From the NCBI GenBank assembly GCA_021683455.1, contig GCA_021683455.1_3051.1: a stretch of DNA of 64,000 bases; one strand, given 5' to 3'. The translations under genes and the position numbers were made by a program. Positions 1,475 through 61,137 of the stretch are shown here, piece after piece. Under the pieces are notes generated by a model. It did no database searches, was not told where the DNA came from, and saw nothing but the letters and a program-made list of their open reading frames with translations. Position 1 is the stretch's first letter, and each line of letters starts with the position of its first letter. Origin of the DNA: a phage.

Positions 1475-2125
1475 TTATATATTGTTAATTTGATTTAGAA
1501 TTCTTTTTGCTTGAGTATGACTTACGCCAATATGCTTAGCATATTTAGATAATTCACCACGCTTAGAAAAATCATATAATTTAGAAATTTCTATTCTTCT
1601 TTTTCTTTCATCCGCAGAAACTTTTGCTTCGTTTGCTTTTGCTATTTTACGTTTAGCTTCTTGAGAATGAGTTTTACCAGCAAAGCCGTTCTTCATTAAT
1701 CCATTTGAAGACCATCCTTTTAATTTTCCGTTAGAATGTGCCTTTTTAACACCCAATGAAATTAATTCGCGTTGCTGATCTGTCATAGGATAATTATTTA
1801 TATGATCCCATCCACCTTCACCTCCAAGTTTTAAATTATACACATCTGGTCTATTTAAAAACTCTTCTGTGACAATATTTTTCTCGGCTTCAAGCATAGA
1901 TTCTTTATCGTCAAAATACTCTAATATTTCTTTAGAAAAATTTTCTATACCATATTTATCTTGGGCTCTTTTTAATAATTTACCAGAACCCATATATCCA
2001 TCATCTAAATTTTCGGTAGAATGCACACCAATATAAATTTTATTATTAATTTTATTTGTTATTTTATAAAGATAAAAATGCATATCAGTCCCTAATAAAG
2101 AACTGAGCGTCTCACGACGAGTCAT
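1475..2125 (-). mobile_element. segB: GIY-YIG homing endonuclease SegB, inserted inside the tRNA cluster (216 aa)
   Basis: N-terminal GIY-YIG module (FYLYKITNKINNKIYIGVHST..GYMGSG); sits between the two tRNA subclusters as T4 segB does. Confidence 0.8.
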
Positions 2126-2129
2126 AAAT

Positions 2130-2203
<74 letters not shown>

Positions 2204-2208
2204 AAATT

Positions 2209-2295
2209 TGGTGCGAGAAGTGGGACTCGAACCCACAAGGAAATCATTCCGCAGCATTTTAAGTGCTGTGCCTTTACCAATTTGACCATTCTCGC
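2209..2295 (-). tRNA. tRNA-Leu (anticodon TAA), long variable arm
   Basis: Acceptor GCGAGAA/TTCTCGC, anticodon loop CTTAAAA, long variable arm, T-arm GGGTTCGAGTCCC, CCA. Confidence 0.8.
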
Positions 2296-2296
2296 G

Positions 2297-2369
2297 CTGG
2301 GAATAAAGGACTCGAACCTTTGCATCTAGCAGTCAAAGTGCTATGCCTTACCAACTTGGCTAATTCCCA
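2297..2369 (-). tRNA. tRNA-Gln (anticodon TTG), no encoded CCA
   Basis: Acceptor TGGGAAT/ATTCCCA, anticodon stem TAGCA/TGCTA with loop CTTTGAC, T-arm AGGTTCGAGTCCT. Confidence 0.75.
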
Positions 2370-2435
2370 ATTATTAACAAAGGCTCTCAAATAAGAGCCC
2401 TTGATGATAGAGGGTATTAATCAGTGCGGTATGAG

Positions 2436-2465
2436 TTAATAATAACAAATAATTCTTAAAGCATA
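2436..2465 (-). promoter_or_regulatory. T4 middle (MotA-dependent) promoter candidate driving the tRNA cluster
   Basis: Minus strand reads aaTGCTTTAagaattatttgTTATTATtaa: MotA-box-like TGCTTTA about 12 nt from a TAnnnT -10; exact 30-nt copy upstream of gene 31 at 63521..63550. Confidence 0.5.
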
Positions 2466-2466
2466 T

Positions 2467-2754
2467 TTACCATTTATGATAATACATATTTACGATGCAG
2501 TCAAGACCCAAAGGATTCTTGAAAATATCATATTCAAGAGGACCTTTTTCTGTTTCAATAAAGAAATCAAAATTTACTGTATTAAATTTACGATCTTCCT
2601 TCACTAATTTAACTTGAGAAGATGAACGGTCAACATAAACCTTTTCAACTTCAAAACATGTTAAAACGCCATAATCATCAATCAAGGCTTTAGCCGCGTC
2701 TTGATCATATTTATATCCATTTTCAATGGATGATACTTTCGCATAAAGAATCAT
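2467..2754 (-). CDS. Hypothetical protein (95 aa)
   Basis: ORF in the early-gene direction, tightly packed with neighbours; no motif recognised. Confidence 0.6.
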   Translation of the reverse strand: MILYAKVSSIENGYKYDQDAAKALIDDYGVLTCFEVEKVYVDRSSSQVKLVKEDRKFNTVNFDFFIETEKGPLEYDIFKNPLGLDCIVNMYYHKW

Positions 2755-2756
2755 TA

Positions 2757-3161
2757 TTAACCTTTATCAACAATAGTATGTGTATGGGCATTTACGATTT
2801 GCCACCAGTCAAAACTATCGCCAAATCGTTTTGATTTATTGTCTTCAATAATTTGGCGTAATTCATCTTCTGTTTCAGCATACGCAATCAAATCATCATA
2901 TCCACCGCAAGGATAGTAATTATCGCCTGCGAACAAAAGAAAATTTACTTTAGATGGGTCTACATAATAATGCTCTTTAGGATATTTAGTTCCTTTCCAA
3001 TCAGTTACTTCAACATAACGATAAGAAAATCCATTTTTACTTTCAACCCAACTCCACGCTTCAAAAGGAGTATTAAAAACTCTATCAGGTATTAAATTAC
3101 CTTCAAAATGAGAAGGATTTGCATAATCCCCAGCATAAACATAATATTCGTTAATATTCAT
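2757..3161 (-). CDS. Hypothetical protein (134 aa)
   Basis: ORF abutting neighbours at both ends; no motif recognised. Confidence 0.65.
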   Translation of the reverse strand: MNINEYYVYAGDYANPSHFEGNLIPDRVFNTPFEAWSWVESKNGFSYRYVEVTDWKGTKYPKEHYYVDPSKVNFLLFAGDNYYPCGGYDDLIAYAETEDELRQIIEDNKSKRFGDSFDWWQIVNAHTHTIVDKG

Positions 3162-3347
3162 TTATTCACCTTTAGAAATTTTATCCATAACAATAGCGAT
3201 TAAACCAATTAAAAATGCTACTACAAGTGAAAAAACATTTTCTGCTGTAGTCAATAATCCGCATATAAATCCAACAAACATTGAAAAACTAAAAGCGGAA
3301 GCAGAAATTGCAATAGCAACATTTCGAATTAATTCACAACGTTTCAT
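3162..3347 (-). CDS. Small hydrophobic membrane protein (61 aa)
   Basis: Two predicted hydrophobic helices; SD GAGGAGAA upstream; early promoter immediately upstream. Confidence 0.55.
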   Translation of the reverse strand: MKRCELIRNVAIAISASAFSFSMFVGFICGLLTTAENVFSLVVAFLIGLIAIVMDKISKGE

Positions 3348-53325: not shown

Positions 53326-55383
53326 CTACATTTTGAACTTTTTAGACATTCCGTTGATGTTAACCAAAGAAGCTAAGATTTGAGAAACTTCGCTTTCCTC
53401 TTCTTTTGATTCTTCTACAAGGAATTGATTAAATCTAGCCATTGGACGAACTTCTCCGGTTTCCATCAAATGGTCACCATCATATACCGATTCCTCTAAT
53501 TGTTCAGAAGGAGGAACAATCGTGCCTTCAATTAGATACTTATTATAAGCGGTTTCTTTCATCATGTACGTACTTACTTTATTAATCTTCAGTAAAATTC
53601 CACGTGGTAGAATAACTTCAGCTTCTGATGGAAATCCTGATAAATGACCTGGAACGATAACTTTGATTCGCTCAGCTCCTTTAATTACCATACCCACGCT
53701 AGTTTCAGCATCTTCATTAGCATATGTAGAATGACTACCCATATGCATCAAATCTTCTGCATCAACAGAACCTTCTCCTTCGCCAGAAAATACTGCGCCG
53801 GAATCATCTAGAGCCATATAGTTTTTACCATGCTCACCGAAGATATTTGGTTTAAGCGATGTGGATACGAAGTTCTTGAAATAGAACATTTTATTTTCAA
53901 TGTTATGACGCAAAGTTTTAAAGGTAACTTCTTGTCCACGGTAAAGTGTAGTTCCTGGAGGAAGAACTGAACCTTTAGCGAATGCAGAATCAAGCGTCTC
54001 AATATGTTTAATAGCTCGTTCCATATATTCTTCACGGGTAGAATCTGGTTTACCTAAAAGGAATGAGTTCATTTCAACATATGAATCTGCACAATAATCT
54101 TCAATTACATCAGATTCAGCCTGAGTTAATCCTTTTGGAGTTACTTCAGTACTTGCATATTCATATGCCTGAGCGGCAGATTCATCAATTAATTTATAAA
54201 TTCCATTCATTACAAATTGAATAATAGCTGTCTTTTCATCTGGTGTAGCTTTAGAACCTTTAACTAAATCATTGATAATTTTCTTAATAACATCAAAACT
54301 ATTAGAAATATTAATGTCAGCAAGATCGCTTAAAATTTTATCAGTTTTATAATCAAAGAATTCTTTATTCTTTAAATATTCTTGAGAACCTTGATATGTT
54401 ATATCGCTCTGCAACTTGATAGATGGATCACGTAAACGTGCATGGGCTAATGCAATATGATTTCGGAAACTTTCTAGTTCATAATCGTTAGATTTAAAAC
54501 GAGAAGCACTTCTCATACCACCGATAGCTCCTTTGCTAAAGTTTGAACCAATCTGGATAACCCCGGAGTTCATTGGTCCTTCTGCTTTATACACCGGAAC
54601 TTTAGATTCAAACTCTTGATATTTCTTAGCAGCGAAGCTATCGCCTTGAAGCGAAGCATCGACAGTAGAATATTGAGCTTGTGCTGCTAATCGACGACTA
54701 ATTTTAGTTTTCTGAATAACAGCTTGATCCGTACGCTTATCATTTTCTAAAGCAATAGAAGCAGCAACTGCGACAGCTTTAGGAACAGCATTACCTGTTT
54801 TAACATCTACATAAACATCACCGACCTTCGATTCAACTTTTGTGAATAGCTCTGTTGAAATAGGAGGTACACCTGGAATGTCTTCTAAATTGGCATTTTT
54901 ACGGTAAACCATAATATATGCATATTTCTTATCATAGTCCCAGATTTCCTTTAAAAGAACATATCGACCTGCTCCTTTAGTACGTACTAAGCGGTCAGCA
55001 ATAACTTGCATTTGACGAGCTGCGCCATTTGTTTTACTTTTTAGTACGCGGAATAGGCATGCATCAATTTTATACTGTTTCATTGTTTGAAGAGCAGTAT
55101 CAAAAACAGCATTAATGACGCCAATTGGATTTCCACCCAAGTTTTTAAGCTTAACTAACGATAATTTCTCGTTGACACCTATCATTACGATATGCATCAT
55201 TTTGTCGCCTGGCTTAACGTTTTTATTCGTATCACCACCAGAGGTGTATGTACAAAATCTAAATCCAGGAAGCACGCTTTCTTCACCGGCTTGAATAGCA
55301 AAAATTTGAGGTATTTTATGCTTAGGATTTAAGTTAACAACCGGCGCCGAAGCGCCGTCAAATAATTCTGTAATAAGTTCCAT
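53326..55383 (-). CDS. alt: Alt-family mono-ADP-ribosyltransferase, paralog A (685 aa)
   Basis: R-S-E catalytic signature (LYRGQ, FVSTSL, EAEVILPRG); N-terminus MELITELFD shared with the upstream paralog; T4 Alt is 682 aa. Confidence 0.85.
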   Translation of the reverse strand: MELITELFDGASAPVVNLNPKHKIPQIFAIQAGEESVLPGFRFCTYTSGGDTNKNVKPGDKMMHIVMIGVNEKLSLVKLKNLGGNPIGVINAVFDTALQTMKQYKIDACLFRVLKSKTNGAARQMQVIADRLVRTKGAGRYVLLKEIWDYDKKYAYIMVYRKNANLEDIPGVPPISTELFTKVESKVGDVYVDVKTGNAVPKAVAVAASIALENDKRTDQAVIQKTKISRRLAAQAQYSTVDASLQGDSFAAKKYQEFESKVPVYKAEGPMNSGVIQIGSNFSKGAIGGMRSASRFKSNDYELESFRNHIALAHARLRDPSIKLQSDITYQGSQEYLKNKEFFDYKTDKILSDLADINISNSFDVIKKIINDLVKGSKATPDEKTAIIQFVMNGIYKLIDESAAQAYEYASTEVTPKGLTQAESDVIEDYCADSYVEMNSFLLGKPDSTREEYMERAIKHIETLDSAFAKGSVLPPGTTLYRGQEVTFKTLRHNIENKMFYFKNFVSTSLKPNIFGEHGKNYMALDDSGAVFSGEGEGSVDAEDLMHMGSHSTYANEDAETSVGMVIKGAERIKVIVPGHLSGFPSEAEVILPRGILLKINKVSTYMMKETAYNKYLIEGTIVPPSEQLEESVYDGDHLMETGEVRPMARFNQFLVEESKEEESEVSQILASLVNINGMSKKFKM

Positions 55384-55386
55384 GAT

Positions 55387-57483
55387 TTATCCTTGAACGA
55401 ACTTGTAAGGCATGTTTGCAATATCTATGCAAGACGCAATAATTCCAAGAGATGATTCTACTTTTTGTTTAACATTTGATGAAACAAATGATGCAAAGTC
55501 AACTCTGTCTTCTATTTCAATATCACCTGTCATTGCAACTACTTCACCAGTTTCCATTAGACGGTCTCCGTCATAGATTATCGATTCGGTGAGCTCTTCC
55601 GTGGTCATAACTTCAGCTTGAATGAGTTTTGTATTATTAGATGTTGTTCCGTCATTATTAGAAGCATCAGTTATTTTATTAACTTTGACCATCAATCCAC
55701 GCGGTAGAATAACTTCAGCTTCTGTTGCTATTCCGAGACTTCCTGGATATACAACATTAACTTTATGAGCTCCATCAATTGCCCATCCTATTTGAACTTT
55801 AACGTATTCAGGATTTTCTTTATACGCTCTTATTTCGTTTGGATTAATAGTTATTCCTTCTTCATTTTTATCAACTGTTAATTCATTGCGAGCTTCTGGT
55901 TCTAAAAGACCAATACCAGCATGTGTGATTCCAAAACGTCCAAAAATGATAGGAGTTAAAGAAGTAGATACAAAATTTCTGAAGTAGAACACTTTATTTT
56001 TAACTAACGCTTCATATATAGGAGCAGTCATACTTTGAGCACGATAAACTGTAATGCCTTCTGGTATACGGTCACCATTTTCAAAAGCTGAATCTAAGTT
56101 ATTTATAGCAGATTCAATTTCTTTTTCATTCATTACATCATATCGTTCTGGATTGTAACGACCTAAAAGAAGATTATTGATGTCAGTATATCCTGAACCG
56201 CAATATTCTCTAATGCCACGCTTTTGTGATGGAGTATATTTAGAACCATCGCGTGCAATAGTAATATCAATCATTGGACCAGCACCAATTCCAGAAAAAC
56301 TGTAAATCATTCGTTTGAGGAATTTAGTTTTTGCTGCGTTCCAGGAATTTTTAGTTATTTCTTCCCAGACTTCATCTGATTGTCCTTTACGATTTTTATT
56401 ATGATTAGCAAGCCATTTATCTTTATAATCTTCAAAGAATTGATTTACAGCTGCTGCGTATTTCTCTAAACATTTTATTGAAGTAGTTGGTTCATTTTTA
56501 ATTGCATTAAAAATTACTTCTTTAATTTTTTCTGAAACTTCACCGACTTGACTCATTGGAAAGAATTTATAATCATAGTGAAGTTCATCTGCCGTTCCTT
56601 CAGCAATAATTTTTGCTGCCTTTGTTTTAGAAGCTAATGAATTAATTCCAATTTTCATTTCTTCTGCTTCGGGAATTAAAGGTGCAGTAGCTGGTTTATT
56701 AAAATTGGCTGCTGTAGATTCATACTTCTGGAATAATTCACTTTCAAATCTAGAAGATTCCAATGACTGACTTTGTGCAATTGCTCTACGGGAAATTTTA
56801 ACTTTAACGATTACAGCTTGGTCAGAACGTTTATCATTTTCTTGTGCAATAGATGCTGCAATTGCCTCATTTTTAGTTACTTGAGCTCCAGTATCTTTAT
56901 TGATATAAACATCACCGACCTTCGATTCAACTTTAGTAAAGAGCTCTGTACTAATTTCCGGAACTCCTGGAATGTCTTCTAGTGATACATTTTTGCGATG
57001 TATAAGAATATATGCATACTTTTTATCGTAATCCCAGAGTTCCTTAAGAAGGACGTATCTGCCACCTGAACGACTACGGATAAGTCTATCAGCAATAAGT
57101 TGAATTTGTCGAGCTTGACCGGCGGTTTTAGACTTAAGAATACGAAGCATGCAGGCATCAATTTTATATTGACGCATTGTTTGCATTGCAACAGTAAAAA
57201 CTGAATTGATATAATTAATCGGGCTTGGACCAAGACCTTTTAATTTAGCAATTGAACCTTTAGCAGTTAATGTAAAAGGAACAATATGCATCATTTTATC
57301 GCCCATCTTTAAATCGCGATTAGTATCACCTCCAGATGTATATGTACATAAACGAAAGCCTGGCTGTTCAATTGCATCATCAACATGAACTGAAAAAATT
57401 TGCGGTATTTTCTTCTTTGGATTTAAGTTTGTAATCGGAAGAGTAGTATCTTCGTCAAATAATTCTGTAATAAGTTCCATCAT
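55387..57483 (-). CDS. alt: Alt-family mono-ADP-ribosyltransferase, paralog B (698 aa)
   Basis: Same N-terminal (residues ~1..230) and C-terminal ART modules (VYRAQ, FVSTSL, EAEVILPRG) as paralog A; central ~250 residues diverged. Confidence 0.85.
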   Translation of the reverse strand: MMELITELFDEDTTLPITNLNPKKKIPQIFSVHVDDAIEQPGFRLCTYTSGGDTNRDLKMGDKMMHIVPFTLTAKGSIAKLKGLGPSPINYINSVFTVAMQTMRQYKIDACMLRILKSKTAGQARQIQLIADRLIRSRSGGRYVLLKELWDYDKKYAYILIHRKNVSLEDIPGVPEISTELFTKVESKVGDVYINKDTGAQVTKNEAIAASIAQENDKRSDQAVIVKVKISRRAIAQSQSLESSRFESELFQKYESTAANFNKPATAPLIPEAEEMKIGINSLASKTKAAKIIAEGTADELHYDYKFFPMSQVGEVSEKIKEVIFNAIKNEPTTSIKCLEKYAAAVNQFFEDYKDKWLANHNKNRKGQSDEVWEEITKNSWNAAKTKFLKRMIYSFSGIGAGPMIDITIARDGSKYTPSQKRGIREYCGSGYTDINNLLLGRYNPERYDVMNEKEIESAINNLDSAFENGDRIPEGITVYRAQSMTAPIYEALVKNKVFYFRNFVSTSLTPIIFGRFGITHAGIGLLEPEARNELTVDKNEEGITINPNEIRAYKENPEYVKVQIGWAIDGAHKVNVVYPGSLGIATEAEVILPRGLMVKVNKITDASNNDGTTSNNTKLIQAEVMTTEELTESIIYDGDRLMETGEVVAMTGDIEIEDRVDFASFVSSNVKQKVESSLGIIASCIDIANMPYKFVQG

Positions 57484-57532: not shown

Positions 57533-57721
57533 TTAATAATCTATTGGTAAGAGAGTACGATATATTTCAAACTTTGGACCTTTTTCATAAGCATCAAAAG
57601 TTTCTGTGAATTTATTATAAGCATATGCATCTATAAATTCGAGAATGACTTGTGATACAGAAGTAGAAACATCTCCACCTTCTTTTTGAGCAATGACAAT
57701 TGTTTCTAAGTAAGCTTTCAT
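57533..57721 (-). CDS. Hypothetical protein (62 aa) between ligase and alt
   Basis: Small ORF overlapping the ligase stop by 4 nt. Confidence 0.45.
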   Translation of the reverse strand: MKAYLETIVIAQKEGGDVSTSVSQVILEFIDAYAYNKFTETFDAYEKGPKFEIYRTLLPIDY

Positions 57722-59181
57722 AGACCAGTTACCTCATGAAAATCACCAAATACATCCTCGAATGTATTAGCTTTAGTTTTATCTTCACGTAAACGAATTG
57801 CAATTGGAAGAAATAGCTTAACGTAATCAGTACGTCCATCTAATTTTACCCAGCCGTTGCATTCGCACTCTAGAATTTTTCCAATATAATAATTTTGGTT
57901 TTCCATAATGCGAGTACGGTCAAGTTCATGCGATTTTACGCCGGCTTTATCTTTTAAGCCTGAACCAGCATTTACTTTAATTTTTCCACACTCTGATTCA
58001 AGAATGAAACCACCTGCTTTAGTAGGGTCTTTACGGTGAGGATAAATTCCTACAATTTTTAAATCAACATCAATTACTTCTTTAAATTTATAAAGATTTT
58101 TTGAACGAGCATTTTCCCATAATCCATCGATATTTTTGAGAATAATACCTTCAAGACCTTGGTCAATATACTTTTTGTAAATTACCTTAGCTTCATCTAG
58201 GTTATTTACTATCTGGTTTTCAATTAAAATTACTTTATCATAGCCTGATGTCATTTGTTCTAGTTTAGAAAAACGTACATCATATTTTAAACGAAACGCC
58301 GGAAGACCGTATATTTCTACCAACGGAACATAATCCCAGACCTGAAACTTCATGCATTGAGCTTCTTTTTCTGAAATAGTTCCCTTTAAAGATTTATTAG
58401 CGATTCCATTAGAAGTAGTACGTGATTCAGCTACTTCGGCGAATTCTTTAGCTTTACTAATTTCAGGATAAGCATCAAAAAGAAAATCTAGGCCTTCTGG
58501 CTCCTTTTCAACTTGCTCATGGTATACCAATTCGCCATCAATTAACACACCTTCTGGATGAATCTGGCGAGCTTCTGCAGTCATTTTGATTAACTCTTCC
58601 TTGAGAAGATCTAATCCTAGATATTCATTACCAGCTCGTGATAAAAGACGAACATCATCTAATTCATCACCTCTGACTTCAGCAAAGCACCGAGCTCCAT
58701 CAGCTTTTAATTGGGCAAAGGCTGGAAATTTGATATTCTTATTAATGCCTTTTTCATCATAAGAACTTGCCAGCATTTGAGGTTGTTCAGGAATTAAACC
58801 TGGCCAAACTTTGTTTGCAATAGATACTGATGCACCGCATTCAAGGTCTCGCATCATCACCCGACGCAAAACTTCAACATCATCTTTTTTACCGTCAGTA
58901 ATATATCCAGTTAATTCCTCAATTGCCGCATTTCCAGTCAATTTCCGAGTAGCTAATGTGAATTCAATGAAGTCAAGCATATCGGTAAGAGTCAACATTC
59001 CAAAACTCTGGGTAGCAATACCAGGTTTAGGCCATTTCTTGATATAATACTGTAACCCACGAGAATAAGTCAGACGATATACTCGTTTGAGCAATTCATT
59101 ATCTTTATTCTTTTCAAGAATTGCTTGCTTTTGCTTAGTTGAACCAATAGATGCTATTTCATTCAGAATTTTAAGAATCAT
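57718..59181 (-). CDS. 30: gp30, ATP-dependent DNA ligase (487 aa)
   Basis: Adenylation motif KADGAR; 487 aa identical in length to T4 DNA ligase. Confidence 0.95.
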   Translation of the reverse strand: MILKILNEIASIGSTKQKQAILEKNKDNELLKRVYRLTYSRGLQYYIKKWPKPGIATQSFGMLTLTDMLDFIEFTLATRKLTGNAAIEELTGYITDGKKDDVEVLRRVMMRDLECGASVSIANKVWPGLIPEQPQMLASSYDEKGINKNIKFPAFAQLKADGARCFAEVRGDELDDVRLLSRAGNEYLGLDLLKEELIKMTAEARQIHPEGVLIDGELVYHEQVEKEPEGLDFLFDAYPEISKAKEFAEVAESRTTSNGIANKSLKGTISEKEAQCMKFQVWDYVPLVEIYGLPAFRLKYDVRFSKLEQMTSGYDKVILIENQIVNNLDEAKVIYKKYIDQGLEGIILKNIDGLWENARSKNLYKFKEVIDVDLKIVGIYPHRKDPTKAGGFILESECGKIKVNAGSGLKDKAGVKSHELDRTRIMENQNYYIGKILECECNGWVKLDGRTDYVKLFLPIAIRLREDKTKANTFEDVFGDFHEVTGL

Positions 59182-59447
59182 TGTTCATCCTTTAGAGTTT
59201 GGTTTACAGCTCTATTATAAATCAATTCATCATTAAGCTCAGTCAAAGACCTGTGGTACGTGGTTCTAACTTTATTTCCTTGCATCCAGTGCTTGACGTA
59301 AATGAAACCTTGCTCTACACATTTTTTAAAAATTCGTTCGTCTTTTTGAGCTCGGAATTCTGGATTGCATCTAAAAAATTGATTTACGTGACCGTAATCA
59401 CGTGTAGTATTACCTTCATTTTCATAAATAGTATGAACAACAAACAT
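59178..59447 (-). CDS. Hypothetical protein (89 aa), 30.1 position
   Basis: ORF overlapping the ligase start; translationally coupled. Confidence 0.6.
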   Translation of the reverse strand: MFVVHTIYENEGNTTRDYGHVNQFFRCNPEFRAQKDERIFKKCVEQGFIYVKHWMQGNKVRTTYHRSLTELNDELIYNRAVNQTLKDEQ

Positions 59448-60289
59448 TAGAATGCTCCTTGTAAAATATTATCACCACTAGTAGGTCTATTATACAAATA
59501 CTCTATGCCACCAGGTTTAATATAGTTCCATGTATGAAATGGATGCACATGATATGGATGTGTATAATATGGATGGTATGGATTTAATCCAGGAGTTCTC
59601 CAGGTAGTATTCCAACGAAAAGAATCGTTTTTAATCATCTTTTCAATTACATCTTTTATAGCTTTTTCACTATCAAAACTTTCTTTATTTTCATTCGATG
59701 GAAAAAGCTTATTCTCTACATCATTCCATGTATAAACTCGCTGTGCAGTTTTTGGAATACTGTCACGCTCCCCTCGAGCCATCCAATAAACAGGAACATT
59801 TAATATTTCACTCGCGTGATCGCAGTGGTGAGCGAGATCGTCAATATAACAAATTACGTTATATTTCTCTTTTGCCTTTTTGAACAACTCTTCTTTTGAA
59901 GAATCATGACCACACATCAATACTTCTGAGAAGGCACCAGGAAAAAGAGCATTCAAATTAAATTGACGATTCAGCAGAGCGTCAATAGAATCACCCAATG
60001 CTGTAACAGCTACAAAATTATAATCTTCTTTTAATTTGTTAATTACACACAGGGCATCTTTATATGGAGACAAGTAACGAATAAAATCTGAACGATTGTA
60101 TTTTTCAATTAACTTGACGCCAAGTTCTTCATCGCAATTAAAGAGCTTACCAGGAGAAATAAATTTTTCGTCCTGAATCATTTTTAAAATATGTTCTAAT
60201 GGAAGATTATATTTTTGGGCAAAATAAGGAAGACCTGATTGCCAGCTTAAACATACACCATCAATATCAGTCAAAATAGTAGGCTTCAT
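59447..60289 (-). CDS. HAD-superfamily phosphatase/nucleotidase-like protein with His/Pro/Tyr-rich C-terminus (280 aa)
   Basis: HAD motif I ILTDIDGV, motif II-like AVTALG, motif IV CYIDD; C-terminal HPYHPYYTHPYHVHPFH. Confidence 0.65.
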   Translation of the reverse strand: MKPTILTDIDGVCLSWQSGLPYFAQKYNLPLEHILKMIQDEKFISPGKLFNCDEELGVKLIEKYNRSDFIRYLSPYKDALCVINKLKEDYNFVAVTALGDSIDALLNRQFNLNALFPGAFSEVLMCGHDSSKEELFKKAKEKYNVICYIDDLAHHCDHASEILNVPVYWMARGERDSIPKTAQRVYTWNDVENKLFPSNENKESFDSEKAIKDVIEKMIKNDSFRWNTTWRTPGLNPYHPYYTHPYHVHPFHTWNYIKPGGIEYLYNRPTSGDNILQGAF

Positions 60290-60750
60290 AGAGAGTCTCT
60301 TAATAGGTTTAACACATCAATAAATTCAGCTTCGGTTAGTATTGTATCATCTTTTGTTAGACCGCTGGCCATGCTGTGCTTCAAAACTTTTCCTTTCGAG
60401 GCTTGTAATGCATCACGAAACCCTTTATTTTGGATCGCGGCTTCAAAATATGCATTTGTGTATAATTCTTTCCACGCTGGAGAGTATCTTGAAAACGGAA
60501 CTCCGAGCCAGAAGAGGGTCCCACGGTCCTGAGCTCTAGCATAAGACCTTCCAGCTTGTTGGGCGGCAAGCCCGGATAACCCAAATACACGACGTTGCTG
60601 TTCAACATTTTTCACCTTACATCCTTGGAGAAATCCTTCAAGACCTCCGAATTGAATACCATCCATGACAAAAGGCCATTGGGCGAAATTACTTAATGCA
60701 CATGATGGCCATTTAAAATTGCTTCTAATCTCTAACTCAGACATTTTCAA
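60286..60750 (-). CDS. NADAR (YbiA/DUF1768-like) domain protein (154 aa)
   Basis: LSNFAQWP..DG segment resembles the conserved FSNFA.WP..DG core of E. coli YbiA as I recall it; 4-nt overlap with the HAD gene. Confidence 0.55.
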   Translation of the reverse strand: MKMSELEIRSNFKWPSCALSNFAQWPFVMDGIQFGGLEGFLQGCKVKNVEQQRRVFGLSGLAAQQAGRSYARAQDRGTLFWLGVPFSRYSPAWKELYTNAYFEAAIQNKGFRDALQASKGKVLKHSMASGLTKDDTILTEAEFIDVLNLLRDSL

Positions 60751-60943
60751 TACTTATAATTTCAACATCAGCCCAATGACCATAGCAAGGAAGACGAAAC
60801 TCAACTGGCCAGTCACTACCCTTTTCTAGTATAATAGACTTGACTTGTGGTTCTTCATGCTCGTCAGTATATGGATTTTTATCTGTTACTTTATATGTGA
60901 CCTTAATGTACTGAATTCCAAAAATCTTATTAATTATATTCAT
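60737..60943 (-). CDS. Hypothetical protein (68 aa)
   Basis: Overlapping, coupled small ORF in the early cluster. Confidence 0.5.
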   Translation of the reverse strand: MNIINKIFGIQYIKVTYKVTDKNPYTDEHEEPQVKSIILEKGSDWPVEFRLPCYGHWADVEIISIENV

Positions 60944-61137
60944 ACTAATTCCTTTAATCCGTAAATAGGAGATAATTCATCACCCATACGAAGGTCTTCA
61001 TTTCCATCTACCCAGGAAACAATATAAGCCTCTTTTATTTGAATACCACTCCATTTAAATGGAGGTAGAACCTTAGAAATTAATCCAGGTATACCAACTC
61101 CCTTTAATTCAACAGTTTGACCTAAAAAGAATTTCAT
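60940..61137 (-). CDS. Hypothetical protein (65 aa)
   Basis: Overlapping, coupled small ORF in the early cluster. Confidence 0.5.
   Translation of the reverse strand: MKFFLGQTVELKGVGIPGLISKVLPPFKWSGIQIKEAYIVSWVDGNEDLRMGDELSPIYGLKELV

What the first reader, a model, noticed from the sequence alone, without database searches (positions are those of the whole stretch)
59447..60750. Translationally coupled HAD phosphatase and NADAR (YbiA-like) pair next to DNA ligase
The 280-aa ORF carries HAD motifs (DIDGV, YIDD) and an unusual His/Pro/Tyr-rich tail (HPYHPYYTHPYHVHPFH). The next ORF overlaps it by 4 nt and has an LSNFAQWP..DG core like YbiA/NADAR proteins. NADAR enzymes have been reported to hydrolyse N-glycosidic bonds, including reversal of guanine ADP-ribosylation on DNA by DarT-type toxins. 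Sitting in the early anti-host region beside two Alt ARTs, the pair could be a nucleotide or ADP-ribose clean-up module, for example countering DarT-like defence or limiting self-damage from phage ARTs. That function is inference.
Basis: partly seen in the sequence, partly recalled or inferred. Interest (0 to 1): 0.6.

Follow-up and report, generated by a model that had tools for sequence, protein, structure and literature searches.

The report
T4 AdfN NADAR beside HAD phosphatase
These are the T4-type phage genes 30.3 and 30.2: the first is AdfN, a published enzyme that strips ADP-ribose off phage DNA to defeat the bacterial DarTG1 defence, and the second is an uncharacterised nucleotidase-like phosphatase that shows no sign of working with it.

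Summary
The sequence observation is correct. The window comes from a Tequatrovirus (T4-like phage). The two ORFs are gp30.2 (280 aa) and gp30.3 (152 aa from its ATG), joined by an ATGA overlap.

gp30.3 is 98% identical to T4 AdfN. It has the NADAR fold and the catalytic E36, K43 and H123. AdfN is already published as an ADP-ribosylglycohydrolase for guanine-ADP-ribosylated DNA that is necessary and sufficient against DarTG1.

gp30.2 is a true C1-capped HAD phosphatase with all four motifs invariant. Its nearest characterised relatives are the 5'(3')-deoxyribonucleotidases (NT5C).

The idea that the two genes form a functional module is not supported:
- In published T4 transposon sequencing, 30.2 insertions are neutral under DarTG1 (log2FC -0.12), while 30.3 insertions are lost (-7.25).
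- Start/stop overlaps occur at about half of the local gene junctions.
- AdfN abuts 30.2 in only 18 of 77 related loci, whereas DNA ligase follows 30.2 within 700 nt in 64 of 77.

The substrate and role of gp30.2 remain unknown. Overall interest is low.

The parts
60286..60744 (-). Gene 30.3 (adfN), 152 aa from the ATG. NADAR-family DNA ADP-ribosylglycohydrolase and anti-DarTG1 factor. An in-frame TTG at 60750 would add two residues.
   Evidence: Pfam PF08010 Phage_30_3, E = 4.9e-70. 149 of 152 residues identical to T4 gp30.3. AF2 pLDDT 93.5. The top three PDB Foldseek hits are YbiA 2b3w, NADAR 8bau and NADAR 8bat. Function from PMC11825919 and PMC11125620.
60616..60639 (-). Codons for AdfN catalytic residues E36 (60637-60639) and K43 (60616-60618).
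   Evidence: Codons checked. Both are invariant in 59 homologues. E36A and K43A abolish T4 AdfN function.
60376..60378 (-). Codon for H123, the phage-type third catalytic residue in the last strand. It is Glu in YbiA-type and Asp in DarT-associated NADARs.
   Evidence: Invariant in alignment A2. The His signature of phage NADARs is described in PMC11125620.
60286..60289 (-). ATGA overlap of the 30.3 stop and the 30.2 start.
   Evidence: The same junction occurs in T4. It is one link in a chain of overlapping junctions running 30.6 to alt.1.
59705..60289 (-). Gene 30.2, residues 1-195: HAD Rossmann-like core plus an alpha-helical C1 cap (roughly residues 14-75). Predicted NT5C-like nucleotide phosphatase.
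60254..60268 (-). HAD motif I, D8-I-D10-G-V12: nucleophile Asp and the Asp+2 general acid/base.
   Evidence: D8, D10 and G11 are invariant. D8 and D10 are invariant across 128 diverse members.
60002..60004 (-). HAD motif II, T96.
   Evidence: At least 90% conserved.
59894..59896 (-). HAD motif III, K132.
   Evidence: Invariant in all alignments.
59837..59842 (-). HAD motif IV, D150-D151 (Mg2+ ligands, within YIDD).
   Evidence: At least 90% conserved in A1 and invariant in A3.
59450..59704 (-). Gene 30.2, residues 196-280: variable, mostly disordered tail rich in Pro, Asn, Tyr and His, ending in the recurring motif GIEYLYNRPT (residues 261-270).
   Evidence: pLDDT below 50 for residues 225-233, 240-262 and 268-280. 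The tail is absent from roughly 200-aa homologues. The GIEYL..PT motif recurs in homologues down to about 50% identity, two of them from named Klebsiella- and Citrobacter-phage records. T4 tail shown.
59178..59447 (-). Gene 30.1 (DUF3045). Its start overlaps the 30.2 stop by 1 nt (TAATG). Context only.
   Evidence: Pfam PF11243, E = 2.9e-64. Junction read.
57718..59181 (-). Gene 30, ATP-dependent DNA ligase: the neighbour most consistently linked to 30.2 across T4-like phages. Context only.
   Evidence: The ligase starts within 700 nt downstream of 30.2 in 64 of 77 loci.

Best explanation
These are two adjacent but functionally independent early genes of a T4-like phage.

Gene 30.3 is AdfN, a single-domain NADAR enzyme. 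It hydrolyses the N-glycosidic bond between ADP-ribose and guanine in phage DNA. This undoes modification by the host DarT1 toxin and lets replication proceed. That function is shown experimentally for the 98%-identical T4 protein and is inferred here by identity.

Gene 30.2 is a Mg2+-dependent HAD phosphatase with an alpha-helical C1 cap. It belongs to a divergent, mostly phage-borne branch related to the 5'(3')-deoxyribonucleotidases (NT5C). It most likely dephosphorylates a (deoxy)nucleoside monophosphate or a similar small phosphomonoester through an aspartyl-phosphate intermediate on D8, with D10 as acid/base. The fold and catalytic residues are shown; the substrate class is inferred; the physiological role is unknown.

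The ATGA overlap reflects the tight gene packing of this co-oriented T4 early region, not a dedicated two-enzyme pathway.
For: AdfN:
- PF08010 hit, E = 4.9e-70, and 149/152 identity to T4 gp30.3.
- AF2 pLDDT 93.5. The only confident PDB fold matches are three NADAR structures.
- The profile hits YbiA (E = 0.0055). 7 of 59 homologues also hit Pfam NADAR.
- E36, K43 and H123 are invariant.
- Published genetics and biochemistry and Tn-seq (log2FC -7.25 under DarTG1).

gp30.2:
- The four HAD motifs are conserved.
- Among PDB sequences, the family profiles pick out deoxyribonucleotidases first: 2jao E = 0.02, 3bwv E = 2.4e-7 over the full length and mdN about 1e-3.
- NT5C is the commonest Pfam hit among family members, 49 of 128.

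Independence:
- 30.2 insertions are neutral under DarTG1, in M9 medium and in the host comparison tabulated as Data S9 (by the table's index, K-12 versus clinical isolate CFE299), and 30.2 is non-essential.
- Overlapping junctions are the local norm.
- The adjacency is not conserved.
Against: - The window's gp30.2 itself has no Pfam hit at E <= 0.1. The NT5C link rests on profiles and on other family members.
- AdfN abuts or lies just upstream of 30.2 in several distant lineages.
- The AdfN authors propose that T-even phages encode another factor needed for full AdfN activity. A subtle or redundant contribution of gp30.2 is not excluded by pooled Tn-seq in one host with one DarTG1 construct.
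- The strong 30.2-ligase linkage is unexplained by a simple nucleotide-pool role.
Confidence: 0.8

Rival explanations
1. gp30.3 and gp30.2 form a translationally coupled two-enzyme module. AdfN releases ADP-ribose from DNA, and the HAD phosphatase processes the released ADP-ribose or nucleotide product, or is the extra factor that gives AdfN full activity in T-even infections.
For: - ATGA overlap.
- AdfN directly abuts 30.2 in 18 loci from several lineages. Whenever AdfN is found within 4 kb, it is upstream on the same strand (36 of 36 loci).
- The AdfN paper says T-even phages likely encode another factor required for full activity.
Against: - T4 Tn-seq under DarTG1: 30.2 log2FC -0.12, p = 0.61, 71 sites, against 30.3 at -7.25.
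- 15 of 28 local junctions overlap.
- In 41 of 77 loci, 30.2 has no AdfN within 4 kb. PG7 and STML-198 carry both genes tens of kb apart.
- gp30.2's nearest relatives are dNMP phosphatases, not ADP-ribose enzymes.
Confidence: 0.05
2. gp30.2 is a partner of the DNA ligase. It would be a DNA-end 3'-phosphatase or a repair-linked nucleotide phosphatase that prepares or supports ligation, analogous to the phosphatase modules of PNKP or LigD.
For: - The ligase starts within 700 nt downstream of 30.2 in 64 of 77 loci and within 100 nt in 22, often with overlapping stop and start. This holds in very divergent T4-like phages, while the other 30.x genes come and go.
- A rare fusion (P0284) joins a Pol-beta-like nucleotidyltransferase (phrog_24943) to a gp30.2-type HAD. 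The same two genes are neighbours, with the ligase nearby, in L078.
- One GenBank record labels a feature under the match 'polynucleotide kinase'.
- Weak hits to PNKP-type HAD models.
Against: - The predicted alpha-helical cap inserted after motif I is typical of small-molecule HAD enzymes. Polynucleotide phosphatases such as T4 Pnkp are capless (established knowledge of HAD cap classes).
- T4 already encodes PseT, a 3'-phosphatase.
- Synteny in T4-like genomes can be inherited without any functional link, and the 77 loci are phylogenetically related.
- 30.2 is dispensable whereas the ligase is essential.
Confidence: 0.12
3. gp30.2 is a conditional counter-defence or nucleotide-pool enzyme. 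By dephosphorylating particular dNMPs produced when the phage degrades host DNA, it would remove nucleotide signals or substrates that bacterial immune systems sense.
For: - NT5C-like family assignment.
- The gene is conserved in about 1,440 phage records yet is non-essential and neutral in every T4 Tn-seq comparison read here, which is the usual profile of conditional anti-defence genes.
- dNMP-derived triggers and a role for a phage dNMP monophosphatase (T5-like Dmp) in defence outcomes are documented.
Against: - There is no direct evidence.
- No depletion of 30.2 insertions in the host comparison tabulated as Data S9.
- T2 is restricted by the m6-dAMP-sensing system while closely related T4 is not, and the authors point to the DNA mimic Arn.
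- A general dNMP phosphatase would work against T4's own nucleotide salvage.
Confidence: 0.1

Closest known systems
T4 AdfN (gp30.3), anti-DarT factor NADAR (Nat Commun 2025, PMC11825919)
   Same: Same gene at the same map position. 149 of 152 residues are identical, the length is the same, and E36, K43, H123 and the C-terminal helix that RB69 loses by frameshift are all present.
   Different: Three conservative substitutions (K11R, V53I, M125I). The activity of this exact variant has not been tested.
DarG1-type NADAR antitoxins (Geobacter lovleyi NADAR, 8bat) and Phytophthora NADAR (8bau)
   Same: Same fold (Foldseek probability at least 0.99), the same Glu/Lys catalytic pair, and the same reaction, removal of ADP-ribose from guanine in DNA.
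   Different: AdfN lacks the N-terminal extension of DarT-associated NADARs and has His where they have Asp. It is an orphan enzyme with no cognate toxin and works best in T-even infections.
E. coli YbiA (2b3w), founding NADAR/DUF1768 member
   Same: Best structural match (TM 0.69/0.63, E = 2.8e-5). The SNFA...DG...E..Q..K motif aligns.
   Different: About 16% identity. YbiA-type proteins carry Glu in the last strand, and the AdfN paper describes them as housekeeping enzymes with a role in riboflavin metabolism rather than anti-phage defence. The window's protein does not reach the Pfam NADAR model directly.
5'(3')-deoxyribonucleotidases, Pfam NT5C (human and mouse cdN and mdN; S. epidermidis 3bwv)
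   Same: HAD core plus helical cap, with a DxDGV motif I. These are the best sequence-profile matches in the PDB (3bwv E = 2.4e-7 over the full length) and the commonest Pfam hit in the family. In the alignment to cdN, conserved W16, F43 and Y64 line up with F18, F44 and Y65 of cdN. I recall those as nucleoside-contacting aromatics, but this was not verified here.
   Different: About 15-20% identity. The window's protein has no direct Pfam NT5C hit. It carries a family-specific invariant R108 and N111 and, in many members, a long disordered C-terminal tail. No substrate is known.
T4 PseT (Pnkp) 3'-phosphatase domain
   Different: Pnkp is capless and acts on polynucleotide ends. gp30.2 has a roughly 60-residue helical cap and aligns with Pnkp over only about 125 core residues.
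Phage T5 Dmp, dNMP monophosphatase
   Same: A phage-encoded enzyme that dephosphorylates dNMPs early in infection. It is a possible functional analogue.
   Different: No relationship to gp30.2 was tested. From memory, Dmp is an HD-domain enzyme and not a HAD enzyme.

Membership tests
gp30.3 / AdfN family (Pfam PF08010 Phage_30_3) | Significant full-length match to the family model and orthology to T4 gene 30.3 | tested here: met
   E = 4.9e-70, 234 bits against a cutoff of 36, covering model positions 1-138. 98% identity to T4 gp30.3 in the same gene order.
NADAR superfamily | [quoted passage not shown] | tested here: met
   AF2 model with pLDDT 93.5. The top three Foldseek PDB hits are the three NADAR structures, each with probability at least 0.99. 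Every other hit has probability 0.07 or less.
NADAR superfamily | Catalytic Glu and Lys in the E-x(2)-[FL]-Q-x(2)-K segment | tested here: met
   E36 and K43 are present and invariant in 59 homologues. Mutating either abolishes T4 AdfN function.
NADAR superfamily | Charged or polar catalytic residue in the last strand (Glu in YbiA type, Asp in the DarT-linked type, His in the phage type) | tested here: met
   H123 is invariant. The His signature is described in PMC11125620.
NADAR superfamily | Direct match to Pfam NADAR (PF08719) | tested here: not met
   The window's protein hits only PF08010 at E <= 0.1. 7 of 59 homologues hit PF08719, best E = 1.5e-7. The family profile hits YbiA at E = 0.0055. 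The link is therefore transitive and structural.
NADAR superfamily | Hydrolysis of guanine-linked ADP-ribose on DNA | not testable with these tools
   Published for the T4 protein in vitro and in vivo. Inferred here from 98% identity.
HAD superfamily phosphatases | Four catalytic motifs: DxDx(T/V), a Ser/Thr, a Lys, and an acidic DD pair | tested here: met
   D8-I-D10-G-V, T96, K132 and D150-D151. They are invariant or at least 90% conserved. D8, D10 and K132 are invariant across 128 diverse members.
HAD superfamily phosphatases | Rossmann-like core fold | tested here: met
NT5C 5'(3')-deoxyribonucleotidase family (PF06941) | Significant match to the family model or to its solved members | tested here: inconclusive
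   No Pfam hit for the window's protein. 11 of 55 close homologues and 49 of 128 broad-family members hit NT5C, best E = 4.2e-10. The broad profile hits 3bwv at E = 2.4e-7 and mdN at about 1e-3. This indicates a divergent sister branch rather than a proven member.
NT5C 5'(3')-deoxyribonucleotidase family (PF06941) | Phosphatase activity on 5'- or 3'-dNMPs | not testable with these tools
   No biochemical data were found for gp30.2. A full-text search for 'gp30.2' returned no papers.
Polynucleotide 3'-phosphatases (PNKP / T4 Pnkp type HAD) | Capless (C0) HAD core with an open active site that accepts a nucleic-acid end | tested here: not met
   The model has four helices (H16-26, H32-40, H46-49, H54-65) inserted right after motif I, which is a C1 cap. 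T4 Pnkp aligns over only about 125 core residues.
Two-gene functional module (AdfN plus HAD) | Conserved adjacency across lineages | tested here: not met
   AdfN abuts 30.2 in 18 of 77 loci and lies within 4 kb in 36 of 77. Both genes are about equally widespread (1,440 and 1,511 phage records) but are far apart in PG7 and STML-198.
Two-gene functional module (AdfN plus HAD) | Shared phenotype under the relevant selection (DarTG1) | tested here: not met

The most novel reading that the evidence does not exclude
gp30.2 is neither a housekeeping enzyme nor AdfN's partner. It would be a conditionally important nucleotide phosphatase, conserved across T4-like phages and kept next to the DNA ligase. 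Its real job would be either to erase dNMP-type danger signals or substrates used by nucleotide-sensing bacterial immunity, or to support ligase-dependent repair. Its variable tail with the GIEYL..PT motif would dock it to a replication or repair partner.
Probability: 0.15. Interest if true: 0.55.

Novelty: already known. Interest (0 to 1): 0.2.

Why it matters
The central biological claim, a phage NADAR that reverses DarT-type DNA ADP-ribosylation, is correct. It was published in 2023-2025 for this very gene, so the finding adds nothing new there.

What remains open is gp30.2. It is a catalytically intact, NT5C-like HAD phosphatase found in about 1,440 sequenced T4-like phages and almost always placed just upstream of the DNA ligase. 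It has no known substrate and showed no phenotype in the T4 Tn-seq comparisons read here. Identifying its substrate would fill one of the roughly 100 remaining functional gaps in the T4 genome. It could also connect to the emerging theme of nucleotide-pool warfare between phages and bacteria. That prospect is speculative.

Tried and rejected
- Direct Pfam, NCBIfam and PDB sequence searches with the window's gp30.2 gave nothing significant. Progress needed family profiles and structure prediction.
- Pfam gave nothing for the partners in the rare fusion proteins. PHROGs identified only the Pol-beta-like partner of P0284. A PDB sequence search with that partner found nothing.
- The promoter and terminator scan was uninformative: 22 promoter-like sites against 21 expected by chance.
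- I tried to verify the nucleoside-binding roles of cdN/mdN aromatic residues in the literature library. The relevant papers are not held, so that point rests on memory and is flagged as such.
- I considered whether gp30.2 is the 'other factor' that the AdfN authors propose, and rejected it on the Tn-seq data.
- I considered a pseudo-enzyme or scaffold role, and rejected it because all catalytic residues are invariant.
- Searches for 'gp30.2', and for 30.1, 30.2 and 30.3 together with bacteriophage T4, found no functional study of 30.2.
Full report
**Identity of the region.** The window is from a T4-like phage of the genus Tequatrovirus. The stretch 59100-61000 is 97% identical to Shigella phage Sf23 and related phages such as RB51, RB14 and T4, and matches 679 phage records. 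On the minus strand the gene order matches T4: two alt paralogs, alt.1, 30 (DNA ligase), 30.1, 30.2, 30.3, 30.4 and so on through 30.7, 30.8, rIII and 31. The finding's two ORFs are therefore gp30.2 (59447-60289, 280 aa; 278 aa in T4) and gp30.3.

**Check of the observation.**
- Both ORFs, the ATGA overlap (60286-60289), the DIDGV and YIDD motifs and the LSNFAQWP..DG core are present as described.
- The gp30.3 start annotated in T4 is the ATG at 60744, giving 152 aa. The TTG at 60750 lies two codons upstream.
- Gene 30.1 lies between 30.2 and the ligase.
- The 'two Alt ARTs' are real: 685-aa and 698-aa paralogs, 41% identical.

**gp30.3 is AdfN, a known NADAR enzyme.**
- The protein matches Pfam PF08010 (Bacteriophage protein GP30.3) at E = 4.9e-70, but does not hit the NADAR model directly.
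- It is linked to NADAR in four ways. First, 7 of 59 homologues also hit PF08719. Second, the family profile hits E. coli YbiA. Third, a confident AlphaFold model (pLDDT 93.5) has three top PDB matches, and all are NADAR structures: YbiA 2b3w, Phytophthora NADAR 8bau and Geobacter NADAR 8bat. No other credible hit exists. Fourth, E36, K43 and H123 are invariant.
- The literature settles the function. T4 gp30.3 was renamed AdfN (anti-DarT factor NADAR). It is necessary and sufficient for resistance to DarTG1, needs E36 and K43, and removes ADP-ribose from DarT1-modified DNA in vitro. RB69 is DarTG1-sensitive because a frameshift truncates its copy.
- An independent study showed that the T4 enzyme reverses guanine but not thymine ADP-ribosylation, and described the phage-type His.
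- The window's protein differs from T4 AdfN at three conservative positions and is full-length.

**gp30.2 is an NT5C-like HAD phosphatase of unknown substrate.**
- The window's protein has no Pfam or NCBIfam hit and belongs to PHROG 420, 'unknown function'.
- In an alignment of 55 homologues, motif I (D8, D10, G11) and motif III (K132) are invariant, and motif II (T96) and motif IV (D150-D151) at least 90% conserved. W16, S18, R108 and N111 are also invariant.
- The AlphaFold model is confident for residues 1-190. It shows a Rossmann-like core with a four-helix insertion directly after motif I, which is a C1 cap. The tail is mostly disordered.
- Sequence profiles are more specific. The only HAD enzymes in the PDB reached by the close-family profiles are cytosolic 5'(3')-deoxyribonucleotidases.
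- An exhaustive search finds 1,536 cluster representatives at E <= 0.001. A profile of 128 diverse members hits the S. epidermidis putative 5'(3')-deoxyribonucleotidase 3bwv over its full length at E = 2.4e-7, then yeast pyrimidine nucleotidase SSM1 and human mdN.
- 49 of those 128 members hit Pfam NT5C, more than any other family.
- The most likely chemistry is Mg2+-dependent hydrolysis of a nucleoside monophosphate-like phosphomonoester through an aspartyl-phosphate on D8. The substrate itself is inferred, not shown.

**Are the two genes a module?** Three lines of evidence say no.
- Genetics. In the T4 transposon-sequencing study (bioRxiv 10.1101/2025.11.20.689424, Extended Data Table 6), 30.2 is non-essential, with insertions at 72 of 72 TA sites. 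In the control-versus-DarTG1 comparison (sheet identity confirmed), 30.3 has log2FC -7.25 (adjusted p = 0) while 30.2 has -0.12 (p = 0.61, 71 sites).
- Because 30.2 lies downstream of 30.3, these insertions test gp30.2 itself without any polar effect on AdfN. 30.2 is also neutral in LB versus M9 (-0.10) and in the host comparison tabulated as Data S9 (-0.21), which the table's index lists as K-12 versus clinical isolate CFE299.
- Gene packing. In the T4 record, 15 of 28 same-strand junctions from pseT.3 to alt.-3 overlap, and 9 are 4-nt overlaps. Every junction from 30.6 to alt.1 overlaps. The ATGA between 30.3 and 30.2 is therefore not distinctive.
- Synteny. Among 77 related viral loci with a 30.2 ORF, AdfN lies within 4 kb in 36 and abuts 30.2 in 18. 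The ligase starts within 700 nt downstream of 30.2 in 64 and within 100 nt in 22.
- Both genes are about equally widespread: 1,440 and 1,511 phage records, in the same host genera. In Enterobacter phage PG7 and Salmonella phage STML-198 they lie tens of kb apart.
- Caveat: the loci are phylogenetically related, so these counts are not independent events.

**Residual leads on gp30.2.**
- Its persistent position next to the ligase stands out. So does a rare fusion of a gp30.2-type HAD to a Pol-beta-like nucleotidyltransferase (P0284). The same two genes are neighbours in locus L078, where a ligase and an AdfN-like NADAR also lie nearby. These hint at a role in nucleic-acid metabolism.
- The C1 cap and the NT5C affinity argue against direct action on DNA ends, and T4 already has the PseT 3'-phosphatase.
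- The tail is absent from about half the family. Where present it ends in a recurring GIEYL..PT motif, which could be a docking peptide.
- Recent work shows that dNMPs released by phage nucleases can trigger immunity, and that a phage dNMP monophosphatase affects defence outcomes. A conditional counter-defence role is conceivable but untested.
- No paper in the library discusses gp30.2 function.

**Verdict.** The NADAR and anti-DarT reading is right but already known (AdfN). The HAD assignment is right and is refined here to NT5C-like. The 'coupled pair' idea is contradicted by published genetics and by comparative genomics. Novelty: already known. Interest: low (0.2). The only open question is the substrate and role of gp30.2.

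Noticed in passing
window 53326-55383 (-) and 55387-57483 (-): Two full-length Alt ADP-ribosyltransferase paralogs sit in tandem (685 and 698 aa, 41% identical). The similarity is strongest in the N-terminal 240 residues and the C-terminal catalytic region. T4 itself has one alt gene plus the alt.-1 and alt.-2 remnants of a duplication.
   Followed up: partly
window 60737-60943 (-), gene 30.4: In the published T4 Tn-seq under DarTG1, gene 30.4, which lies directly upstream of adfN and overlaps it by 8 nt, is also significantly depleted (log2FC -1.79, adjusted p = 0.014). This may be a polar effect on adfN. Alternatively, 30.4 could be the extra factor that the AdfN authors suspect. The 68-aa protein has no Pfam hit.
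   Followed up: no
P0284 (591 aa); L078 5336-6394 and 4001-4591: A rare fusion protein joins a Pol-beta-like nucleotidyltransferase (phrog_24943 'DNA polymerase', FGDLDIII motif) to a gp30.2-type HAD domain. In locus L078 the same two genes are separate neighbours, with a DNA ligase at 1928-3334. The NTase family occurs in only 28 phage records.
   Followed up: partly
L078 37-498: In a distant group of phage contigs of about 167-183 kb where the ligase lies upstream of the HAD gene, an AdfN-like protein (phrog_652, E = 3.6e-41; motif LSNFAYSPF...SIEGYW) sits about 3.5 kb upstream of the HAD. The HMM built from close AdfN homologues missed it. The count of 36 of 77 loci with AdfN within 4 kb is therefore a lower bound.
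   Followed up: partly
window 59450-59704 (-), gp30.2 residues 196-280: The tail varies even between T4 (NPYNPYHPYQTHPFQTW) and this phage (NPYHPYYTHPYHVHPFHTW), as if short NPY/HPY units expand and contract. The terminal GIEYLYNRPT..QGAF segment is conserved.
   Followed up: partly
window 60381-60608 (-): A 75-aa ORF lies in another frame inside adfN. It corresponds to the ORF annotated in T4 as 30.3', 'internal translation in a different reading frame'. Whether it is expressed was not examined.
   Followed up: no
window 57533-57721 (-), alt.1: The 62-aa ORF whose start overlaps the ligase stop matches Pfam PF24647 'Phage blade protein' (E = 1.7e-29).
   Followed up: no
P0267 (365 aa): Another rare fusion has a gp30.2-type HAD at the N-terminus followed by about 150 residues containing an NGRHRT motif that resembles ParB/sulfiredoxin-type domains. 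This was judged by eye only, and no Pfam hit was found.
   Followed up: no
L041 4603-5064 and L059 5316-5714: In Aeromonas-type T4-like phages of about 220-235 kb, a small 'hydrolase' gene (phrog_3668; the two copies share an AGIQ(L/A)AHA motif) is inserted between 30.2 and the ligase.
   Followed up: no
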